Assembly: GCF_006345805.1 (NCBI RefSeq)
Contig: NC_043004.1
Coordinates: 64,666,001 to 64,730,000, forward strand
Direction of reading: 5' to 3'
Origin: Octopus sinensis
Lineage: Eukaryota
Length of the DNA stretch: 64,000 nucleotides
Below the pieces are notes generated by a model. It was not told the DNA's origin, searched no databases, and saw only the letters and a list, made by a program, of their open reading frames with translations. A program made the translations under genes and the position numbers. This document shows, one piece after another, positions 20,425 through 20,893 of this stretch (its first letter is position 1; every line of letters begins with the position of its first letter).

Positions 20425-20893
20425 TTTATATATAGAGGGCATTATTATACATACATGCCACACGCTAAGAAGGACATTAGTCATTTCTACCAAAAATTTT
20501 ACTAATCCTACCCAAATGCAATTTTTCAACTGGGGTGAACAGTTAGCTGTTTGGCTTCGACGAGACAGGTCGTTTATCTATGATGCGTTCAGAACCAGTC
20601 TTGCTGATGAGTACGTAAGTACGAAATCACAGGTGATACAAGACTAAATTCATTTTTTAAATGTCTTGCTTTGAAAAATTGCATTTGGGTAGGATTAATA
20701 AAATCTTTGGTAGAAATGACTAATGTCCTTCTTAGCGTGTGGCATGTATGTATAATAATGCCCTCTATATATAAATTAATATGTTCAATAAGAAAGAATT
20801 ATTTTCAAAATTTTTCTCTTATGAGGTTTTTCACGCTATCTACCTGATAATTTCTTGTTAAGATTCCTTATTAAGAAGTTATCCTTAATTGTT
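20425..20893 (+). mobile_element. Non-coding HHR-bearing element with 5' inverted copy of its downstream segment
   Basis: 20425-20529 pairs with 20671-20775 (near perfect), enclosing the HHR at 20597. It has (TA)n flanks and is homologous to 57845-58496. Confidence 0.8.
20597..20645 (+). ncRNA. Type I hammerhead ribozyme motif, intact core
   Basis: AGTCTTG-CTGATGA-GTAC(GTAA)GTAC-GAAA-TCAC(AG)GTGA-TA-CAAGACT. Stem I is 7 bp and perfect, stem II has a GNRA loop, stem III pairs, and the AUA cleavage triplet predicts a cut after 20638. Confidence 0.9.

What the first reader, a model, noticed from the sequence alone, without database searches (positions are those of the whole stretch)
20597..20645. 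Intact, sense-strand hammerhead in the intron splitting CELF RRM2
Seen: all core nucleotides are present, stem I is 7 bp and perfect, stem II is GTAC/GTAC with a GTAA loop, and the site is AUA. Stem III (TCAC-AG-GTGA) could close as a monomer with 3 bp plus a 4 nt loop. The motif lies on the transcribed strand between exons 16324-16452 and 24066-24145, enclosed by 105 bp inverted arms that would isolate its folding. Established: intronic self-cleaving ribozymes occur in animal genes such as CPEB3 (HDV-like) and RECK (HHR). Inference: it could cut CELF pre-mRNA co-transcriptionally and affect splicing or the yield of a neural splicing regulator.
Basis: partly seen in the sequence, partly recalled or inferred. 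Interest (0 to 1): 0.8.

Follow-up and report, generated by a model that had tools for sequence, protein, structure and literature searches.

The report
Jumping hammerhead repeat in CELF intron
The self-cutting RNA motif is really there, but it is one of about 3,900 copies carried by a small repeat, likely moved around by Penelope-like retrotransposons, and this young copy likely landed in the CELF intron by chance rather than to regulate the gene.

Summary
In detail: an intact type I hammerhead at 20597-20645, sense strand, in the 7.6-kb intron splitting a CELF RRM2, inside 105-bp inverted arms. The interpretation mostly does not. The motif belongs to a non-coding 454-487-nt repeat unit with 3,895 exact genome matches to its 3' half (control 1). 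Copies form head-to-tail arrays plus an inverted 5'-truncated copy, end in (TA)n, and carry a tail at one end only (25 of 27 two-orientation loci). These are Penelope-like (PLE) insertion marks. No PLE ORF leads into the unit as in an autonomous element, so this is a non-LTR retrozyme. The arms are that inverted copy. They differ at 2 of 105 sites (a young insertion) and raise the predicted cost of the active fold from +2.8 to +6.4 kcal/mol. Stem III is a palindrome that favours a double hammerhead in tandem arrays, and this copy is alone. Covariation shows the ribozyme is selected within the repeat family; nothing shows selection at this locus. A second family copy sits in the next CELF intron (chance 5-9%). 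Cleavage was not tested, and a small effect on CELF pre-mRNA is not excluded.

The parts
16324..16452 (+). CELF exon, N-terminal part of RRM2
16453..24065 (+). GT-AG intron (7,613 nt) that hosts the insertion
24066..24145 (+). CELF exon, C-terminal part of RRM2
20411..20424 (.). left (TA)n flank, merging with the fixed 3' end of the inverted copy
20418..20529 (-). inverted, 5'-truncated copy of the repeat unit (the left 'arm'); lacks the ribozyme
20530..20893 (+). direct, 5'-truncated copy of the ~465-nt retrozyme unit; 96.7-96.8% identical to the L003 copy, best 98.6% among 83 copies compared
20597..20645 (+). type I hammerhead ribozyme; predicted cut 20638/20639
20626..20637 (+). near-palindromic stem III segment; no hairpin alone, -11.2 kcal/mol as a duplex of two copies
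20663..20668 (+). second copy of the stem I 5' strand; predicted to compete for the stem I 3' strand once the arms close
20671..20782 (+). right 'arm': the part of the direct copy that the inverted copy mirrors; ends at the family's first fixed 3' end
20783..20893 (+). tail: extension to the family's second fixed 3' end, present at this end only
20893..21001 (.). right (TA)n run, inferred insertion target
57841..58496 (+). second, independent insertion of the same family (another subfamily) in the next CELF intron; intact sense-strand hammerhead core at 58308, inverted arms 57958-58074 / 58384-58501

Best explanation
This hammerhead belongs to a high-copy, non-coding repeat of 454-487-nt units (a non-LTR retrozyme), and the copy in the CELF intron is a young, truncated insertion, likely made by Penelope-like enzymes and likely a passenger. 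Shown: the repeat family, its tandem and inverted anatomy, its two fixed 3' ends, its (TA)n flanks, its lack of a leading ORF, and covariation in the ribozyme stems. Inferred mechanism: tandem arrays are transcribed; neighbouring hammerheads pair through palindromic stem III and cut out unit-length RNA, which is probably circularised. A Neptune-type PLE reverse transcriptase/GIY-YIG endonuclease then nicks a (TA)n run and copies the RNA from an internal AT-rich point about 145 nt past the cut, running across the cut site and often round more than once. The other strand yields the head-to-head inverted copy, and one end keeps a tail. At this locus both copies stopped short, leaving one ribozyme in the loop of a 105-bp hairpin. 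With no partner in cis and a competing helix, it is predicted to cut slowly, and slow hammerhead cuts in introns are reported to be compatible with splicing, so little effect on CELF is expected.
For: Copy number: 21 exact 43-nt matches, 285 for a 21-mer with <=1 mismatch, 433 for a sister subfamily, 3,895 for the shared 3' half, 1,977 forward and 1,918 reverse, control 1. Units are 454-487 nt in 40 natural tandems; 107 of 274 blocks exceed 500 nt, the longest is 6.9 kb. Of 61 loci, 27 have fixed-type ends on both strands and 25 of these have the short end on one side and the tailed end on the other; 85 of 92 ends run into TA. 243 of 272 3' ends fall in two windows, while 274 5' ends are spread over the unit. 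This anatomy is described for PLEs (PMC8557442; PMC3846280). Selection on the ribozyme within the family: in 37 copies found by DNA upstream of the ribozyme, the core differs at 6 of 394 sites against 165 of 1,767 upstream and 313 of 4,739 downstream, and free position 7 differs in 18 of 36. 6 of 15 pairs change on both sides, 0 of 500 shuffles reach the score. Folding: a natural tandem costs +0.7 kcal/mol as a double hammerhead and +8.3 as two monomers; this locus costs +6.4, while 15 of 19 other exact-copy contexts cost <=3.6. The genome holds intact 775-781-aa RT+GIY-YIG ORFs with the Neptune-type cysteine linker that also end in (TA)n. The subfamily at 58308 has many copies 99-100% identical.
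Against: The autonomous partner was not identified: none of 62 PLE loci shares the unit beyond TA runs. No cleavage, circular RNA or expression was measured. The unit (454-487 nt) is longer than the 170-400 nt in the abstract of PMC7229834 (range 150-450 in its text), and the tail (about 110-140 nt) is longer than the 30-40 bp described for PLEs. 5' ends show a small excess at the cut site (9 against 4 expected, P=0.02), so some templates may be linear. Stem III here is longer than in axolotl or canonical motifs, and single invertebrate hammerheads can cleave fast (0.8 and 0.1 per min, PMC7229834); at 0.1 per min, 8-29% of transcripts would be cut before the next exon is made (assumed polymerase speeds). 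ViennaRNA ignores tertiary contacts and kinetics. Counts over copies are not independent events. All three hammerheads in the window lie on the + strand and none was found in 200 kb of flanks.
Confidence: 0.8

Rival explanations
1. The unit is the pseudo-LTR of an autonomous Penelope-like element, and this copy is a 5'-truncated stump of it. Same passenger status, different label.
For: The insertion anatomy is that of PLEs (PMC8557442). Vertebrate retrozymes are homologous to pLTRs (preprint 10.64898/2026.07.22.740005). One array is joined head-to-head, without TA, to a PLE RT fragment (L326).
Against: In 192 fetched family loci (some overlapping) arrays repeat the unit itself up to 6.9 kb and no PLE ORF runs 5'-to-3' into the unit. 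62 PLE loci carry other 3' ends, several with U3-A8 or A3-U8 minimal hammerheads. Only a few percent of family copies and about 60 of 5,029 GIY-YIG candidates were inspected.
Confidence: 0.1
2. One reading: the ribozyme cuts CELF pre-mRNA co-transcriptionally often enough to change splicing or yield, as an unselected side effect or an early domestication.
For: Sense strand, intact core, 3.4 kb before the next exon. Before the right arm is made the active fold costs only +2.75 kcal/mol. A GNRA loop 2 and U1.7 are present, the minimal tertiary contact described in PMC11875169, although U1.7 can also pair with A2.7. A second sense copy is in the next intron. The CPEB3 ribozyme modulates its host mRNA (PMC10919898 abstract).
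Against: Young insertion of a 3,895-copy family. A second copy within the 113 kb of mapped CELF has probability 0.05-0.09. Arms raise the cost to +6.4 kcal/mol and there is no dimer partner in the element. Hammerhead cuts in introns left splicing intact in reporter work (second-hand, PMC2995048). Only 1 of 9 Xenopus retrozyme dimers cleaved in vitro.
Confidence: 0.07
3. A MITE or fold-back DNA transposon: the arms are terminal inverted repeats and the hammerhead is cargo.
For: 112-nt arms at 96% around a 141-nt centre, TA flanks.
Against: Arm length and the inversion point differ at every locus, the element continues 111 nt beyond the right arm, and most copies are tandem or one-sided.
Confidence: 0.02
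4. A chance match to the hammerhead consensus.
For: No Rfam hammerhead match; the MFE fold lacks stem III.
Against: 0 strict hits in 100 shuffles; compensatory changes and a protected core across subfamilies.
Confidence: 0.01

Closest known systems
Metazoan non-LTR retrozymes (Cervera and de la Pena 2020, PMC7229834; Li, Clavereau and Pollet 2026 preprint 10.64898/2026.07.22.740005)
   Same: Non-coding tandem units of a few hundred nt, one type I hammerhead per unit, low GC (34%), thousands of copies, monomers to multimers, host genome with PLEs; the circular monomer folds stably (z -5.0).
   Different: Units are at the long end (454-487 nt); stem III is longer; insertions show inverted copies, one-sided tails and (TA)n targets, which I did not see described for retrozymes in the passages read. 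Circular RNA and cleavage not shown here.
Insertion units of EN+ Penelope-like elements, Neptune clade (PMC8557442, PMC3846280) and their minimal hammerheads (PMC4209133)
   Same: 5' truncation, partial tandems, head-to-head inverted copy, tail at one end, (TA)n target, palindromic helix III suited to dimers.
   Different: No ORF; the hammerhead has a 4-bp helix II, a 6-7-bp helix I and a real helix III rather than the minimal form; tail about 110-140 nt instead of 30-40.
Conserved intronic hammerheads of amniotes (RECK, C10orf118/CTCL, DTNB; PMC6155905) and the CPEB3 HDV-like ribozyme (PMC10919898)
   Same: Self-cleaving motif on the sense strand of an intron; type I topology as in RECK.
   Different: Those are few-copy motifs conserved across whole classes. 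This one is a young copy of an active high-copy repeat, still inside its element, with no evidence of locus-level conservation.

Membership tests
Type I hammerhead ribozyme | Core CUGANGA, GAAA and NUH joined by three helices, helix I open | tested here: met
Type I hammerhead ribozyme | Covariation in helices and a protected core among homologues | tested here: met
   helix III never varies in the 20 rows, so it gives no covariation
Type I hammerhead ribozyme | Match to a curated Rfam hammerhead model | tested here: not met
   a library score, not a structural requirement
Type I hammerhead ribozyme | Self-cleavage at the predicted site | not testable with these tools
   needs in vitro transcription
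Non-LTR retrozyme | Tandem units of a few hundred nt, each with a complete type I hammerhead, in at least two consecutive units | tested here: met
   family level; this locus itself is a sub-unit fragment
Non-LTR retrozyme | No coding capacity, no LTR-retrozyme layout, GC below 50% | tested here: met
   PBS and PPT were not searched for separately
Non-LTR retrozyme | Expressed as linear and circular unit-length RNA | not testable with these tools
   only assembled contigs were available
PLE-type insertion | 5' truncation, partial tandem, adjacent inverted 5'-truncated copy | tested here: met
PLE-type insertion | Tail at one end only | tested here: met
   25 of 27 two-orientation loci; longer than published tails
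PLE-type insertion | (TA)n target bias | tested here: met
   85 of 92 ends
Autonomous Penelope-like element | RT plus GIY-YIG ORF between pseudo-LTRs | tested here: not met
   no ORF leads into the unit in 192 fetched loci; 62 PLE loci lack the unit; the sample is partial
Domesticated intronic ribozyme (RECK/CPEB3 type) | Few-copy motif freed from its mobile element | tested here: not met
Domesticated intronic ribozyme (RECK/CPEB3 type) | Conserved at the orthologous site across distant species | tested here: inconclusive
   no relative genomes are held; arm divergence implies a young insertion; contig laying was not decisive
Domesticated intronic ribozyme (RECK/CPEB3 type) | Measurable effect on host mRNA | not testable with these tools
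   needs nascent RNA or perturbation
MITE / fold-back DNA transposon | Fixed terminal inverted repeats bounding the element | tested here: not met

The most novel reading that the evidence does not exclude
An active retrozyme family is seeding working hammerheads into the sense strand of large neural genes, twice in CELF alone. This copy cuts a real share of nascent CELF transcripts in the moment before its arms zip shut and lowers or reshapes CELF output, which would be intronic-ribozyme domestication caught at its start, possibly still polymorphic and so testable allele against allele.
Probability: 0.07. Interest if true: 0.65.

Novelty: new member of a known kind. Interest (0 to 1): 0.22.

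Why it matters
As a CELF regulator it would be an invertebrate counterpart of CPEB3 and RECK, but the evidence points to a passenger. The modest value lies in the family: a young, apparently still active retrozyme with four or more subfamilies whose insertions carry every Penelope mark without an ORF. That supports, from insertion anatomy rather than homology, the proposal that Penelope enzymes mobilise animal retrozymes. It also offers near-identical copies for testing circular templates and double-hammerhead cleavage. Three full-text searches found no paper describing a cephalopod retrozyme; supplements were not seen.

Tried and rejected
Rfam: no hit at gathering score in the window; six chance-level non-hammerhead hits at E<=5. 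Autonomous partner: 30 and then 62 GIY-YIG loci compared with the unit, only TA-run matches; PLE proteins against family loci gave nearby but unlinked fragments, one head-to-head junction aside. Expression: no RNA holder listed. One contig of X1 (RNA only by guess) matches 20502-20608 without differences but has 28 letters on the short side of the inversion junction, below the 31-letter bar, so it is not counted as bridging. X15 and X16 appear to have no cover at 20524-20531 (bin means equal one neighbouring contig divided by 9); a hole proves nothing and hairpins sequence badly, so presence or absence of the insertion in those samples is unresolved. One search was swamped by the flanking SINE. 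No A>G differences were listed in the two guessed-RNA runs, which is too little cover to say anything on editing of the hairpin. A conserved 'off switch': the downstream copy of the stem I strand is exact in 94 of 125 copies but does not follow the stem I changes of the sister subfamily, so I rejected it as a selected switch. Run-off at the cut site as the main source of 5' ends: only 9 of 274 lie within 3 nt; a first attempt was contaminated by microsatellite flanks in the references and its 5'-end counts were dropped. One search's core conservation figure was dropped as biased by its anchor; one search replaces it. CELF RRM1 was not found in 100 kb upstream with recalled motifs. PMC2933863 is not held. 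No structure or complex prediction was run, as there is no protein question.

Full report
1. Observation. The sequence at 20597-20645 is a complete type I hammerhead: 7-bp stem I, CUGAUGA, 4-bp stem II with a GUAA loop, GAAA, a short stem III, and the triplet AUA with the cut predicted at 20638/20639. It lies on the sense strand of the GT-AG intron 16453-24065 between two exons that encode one RRM; the first exon's best PDB matches are CELF RRM2 chains. The arms are 20418-20529 and 20671-20782, with 2 mismatches in the 105-nt core. A strict descriptor finds this one motif in the window and none in 100 shuffles. Rfam has no hammerhead match here.

2. It is a repeat. The region matches many places in G000. 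Exact 43-nt copies number 21, a 21-mer with one mismatch 285, a sister subfamily 433, and the shared 3' half 3,895 with even strand use and 1 control hit. Forty natural tandems give units of 454-487 nt; the L003 unit is 465 nt and 34% GC. Contigs of three other organism labels (X16, X17, X19) also hold the family; that shows the family, not this locus. The genome looks like an octopus to me (2.72 Gb, about 30 large contigs, recalled repeat types); no call names it.

3. Insertion anatomy. The window copy is (TA)n, an inverted 112-nt piece, an inversion junction at 20529/20530, a direct 364-nt piece, then (TA)n. Among 61 loci, 27 have fixed-type ends on both strands; 25 of these pair a short end with an end about 115 nt longer, and 85 of 92 ends abut TA. 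In 192 fetched loci (some overlap; ends were de-duplicated), 243 of 272 3' ends fall 130-159 or 250-289 nt past the cut, 274 5' ends are spread over the unit, and 107 of 274 blocks exceed 500 nt. Partial tandems, an adjacent inverted truncated copy, a one-sided tail and microsatellite targets are the published marks of Penelope-like insertions (PMC8557442, passages; PMC3846280, passages). So the arms come from the insertion process. Two more arm-flanked hammerhead elements in the same window (3279 and 58308) make the same point.

4. No ORF, but a candidate helper. PLE proteins find only unlinked fragments near family copies, apart from one head-to-head junction, and 62 GIY-YIG loci do not share the unit. 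The genome does hold intact 775-781-aa RT plus GIY-YIG ORFs with a cysteine-rich linker of the Neptune type, 3' ends in (TA)n, and, in one family, U3-A8 minimal hammerheads, a variant described in PMC4209133 (parts 1-2 of 4 read). The specific partner is unidentified. The definition of non-LTR retrozymes comes from PMC7229834 (passages) and the 2026 preprint 10.64898/2026.07.22.740005 (parts 1-3 of 5 read), which links them to PLE terminal repeats and finds about 43% of Xenopus copies in introns.

5. The ribozyme is selected, within the family. In 20 sequences that I chose from 65 distinct types, mostly the commonest, stem I is 100% paired, 6 of 15 pairs change on both sides, and 0 of 500 shuffles reach the covariation score (related sequences inflate this). 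In 37 copies found through DNA upstream of the ribozyme the core differs at 1.5% of sites against 9.3% upstream and 6.6% downstream. Of 125 copies parsed (133 found, 8 lacked the 5' core), 110 have an intact core and 92 also intact helices (the search anchor covers the 3' core). An intact core at this locus is therefore the norm for a young copy and needs no host selection.

6. Would it cut here? ViennaRNA puts the active secondary fold 2.75 kcal/mol above the ensemble until about 20665, and 6.4 above once the arms pair, because a downstream copy of the stem I strand captures its partner. Fifteen of 19 other exact-copy contexts cost 3.6 or less, two cost 4.8-5.8, and two with the ribozyme inside the duplex about 71. 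Stem III has no hairpin alone but forms a -11.2 kcal/mol duplex, and a natural tandem costs 0.7 as a double hammerhead against 8.3 as two monomers. Against this: tertiary contacts are not modelled; a GNRA loop 2 and U1.7 are present (PMC11875169, passages); and single coral and mussel hammerheads cleave at 0.8 and 0.1 per min. With assumed polymerase speeds of 1-4 kb/min, 0.1 per min would cut 8-29% of transcripts before the next exon, and axolotl-like rates 1.4% or less. Reporter work found splicing intact after hammerhead cleavage of an intron but not after a fast HDV ribozyme (second-hand, PMC2995048, passages).

7. Age and chance. The arms were presumably identical at insertion. Two differences in 105 nt give about 2.6 My (95% range 0.3-9.6) with the octopus calibration quoted in PMC13282606 (passages); this holds only if the taxon guess is right. 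CELF runs on to window coordinates about 114.9 and 129.7 kb, so the 58308 copy is in the next intron; at one family locus per 1.2-2.2 Mb a second hit has probability 0.05-0.09. RECK-type motifs are conserved across birds and mammals (PMC6155905, passages; PMC10761166, passages), and the CPEB3 ribozyme has a tested effect (PMC10919898, abstract only). Nothing comparable is shown here.

8. Mechanism, shown and inferred. Shown: family, anatomy, covariation, absence of a leading ORF in the loci seen. Inferred: transcription of arrays, dimer cleavage to unit RNA, circularisation, and copying by a Neptune-type enzyme primed at (TA)n from a fixed internal point. Copies cross the cut site intact and often exceed one unit, which needs a circular or uncut multimeric template; a small excess of 5' ends at the cut (9 against 4, P=0.02) leaves room for some linear templates.

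9. Verdict. A real hammerhead, a new member of a known kind of mobile element, and likely a passenger in CELF. Searches for Penelope-like + hammerhead + octopus, cephalopod + hammerhead ribozyme, and retrozyme + octopus listed no paper on such a family. No supplements were read; those of PMC7229834 and of the preprint could list it. Earlier scan notes on shark and ray genomes reached similar readings; I saw them after forming mine and did not test them.

Noticed in passing
window 57841-58496: Second insertion of the same retrozyme family in the next CELF intron: intact sense-strand hammerhead with a U-U mismatch at the base of stem II, arms with 1 mismatch in 111 nt, and many genome copies 99-100% identical, so probably a currently active subfamily.
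   Followed up: partly
window 2920-3484: Unrelated element with 124-nt inverted arms (98%) around a U3-A8 minimal hammerhead at 3279 (+), ending in (TA)n; looks like a PLE terminal stump.
   Followed up: no
window 21666-22956 (-): Broken 3' fragment of a Neptune-type PLE (GIY-YIG region, frameshifted) with a ~293-nt tandem 3' repeat, in the same intron as the finding.
   Followed up: partly
L199:952-3294, L200:949-3294, L184: Intact 775-781-aa RT plus GIY-YIG ORFs; the L199/L200 family has a U3-A8 minimal hammerhead 64-68 nt before its (TA)n end, and L070 shows an A3-U8 variant.
   Followed up: partly
L326:4204-4456: A retrozyme array joined head-to-head, without TA, to an inverted PLE RT fragment; could be a chimera made by one enzyme, but the PLE arm lacks its 3' end. 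One case only.
   Followed up: partly
L234:2844-4538: A 1.7-kb insert with a zinc-knuckle ORF1-like frame and a duplicated 19-nt flank sits inside a sister-subfamily copy.
   Followed up: no
L002, L010, L113, L138, L208 (ribozyme loop 2): Subfamilies extend helix II with longer hairpin inserts; most loop-2 variants still end in UAA, and U1.7 is kept in all 20 aligned rows, a natural series for testing the loop-loop contact.
   Followed up: partly
window 20418-20782: The arms form a near-perfect 105-bp RNA duplex (z -26) in the pre-mRNA, a likely A-to-I editing or small-RNA substrate; untested.
   Followed up: no
window 24146 to G000:C8:64780911: The next CELF intron appears to be about 91 kb long, and RRM1 was not found within 100 kb upstream of the window.
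   Followed up: partly
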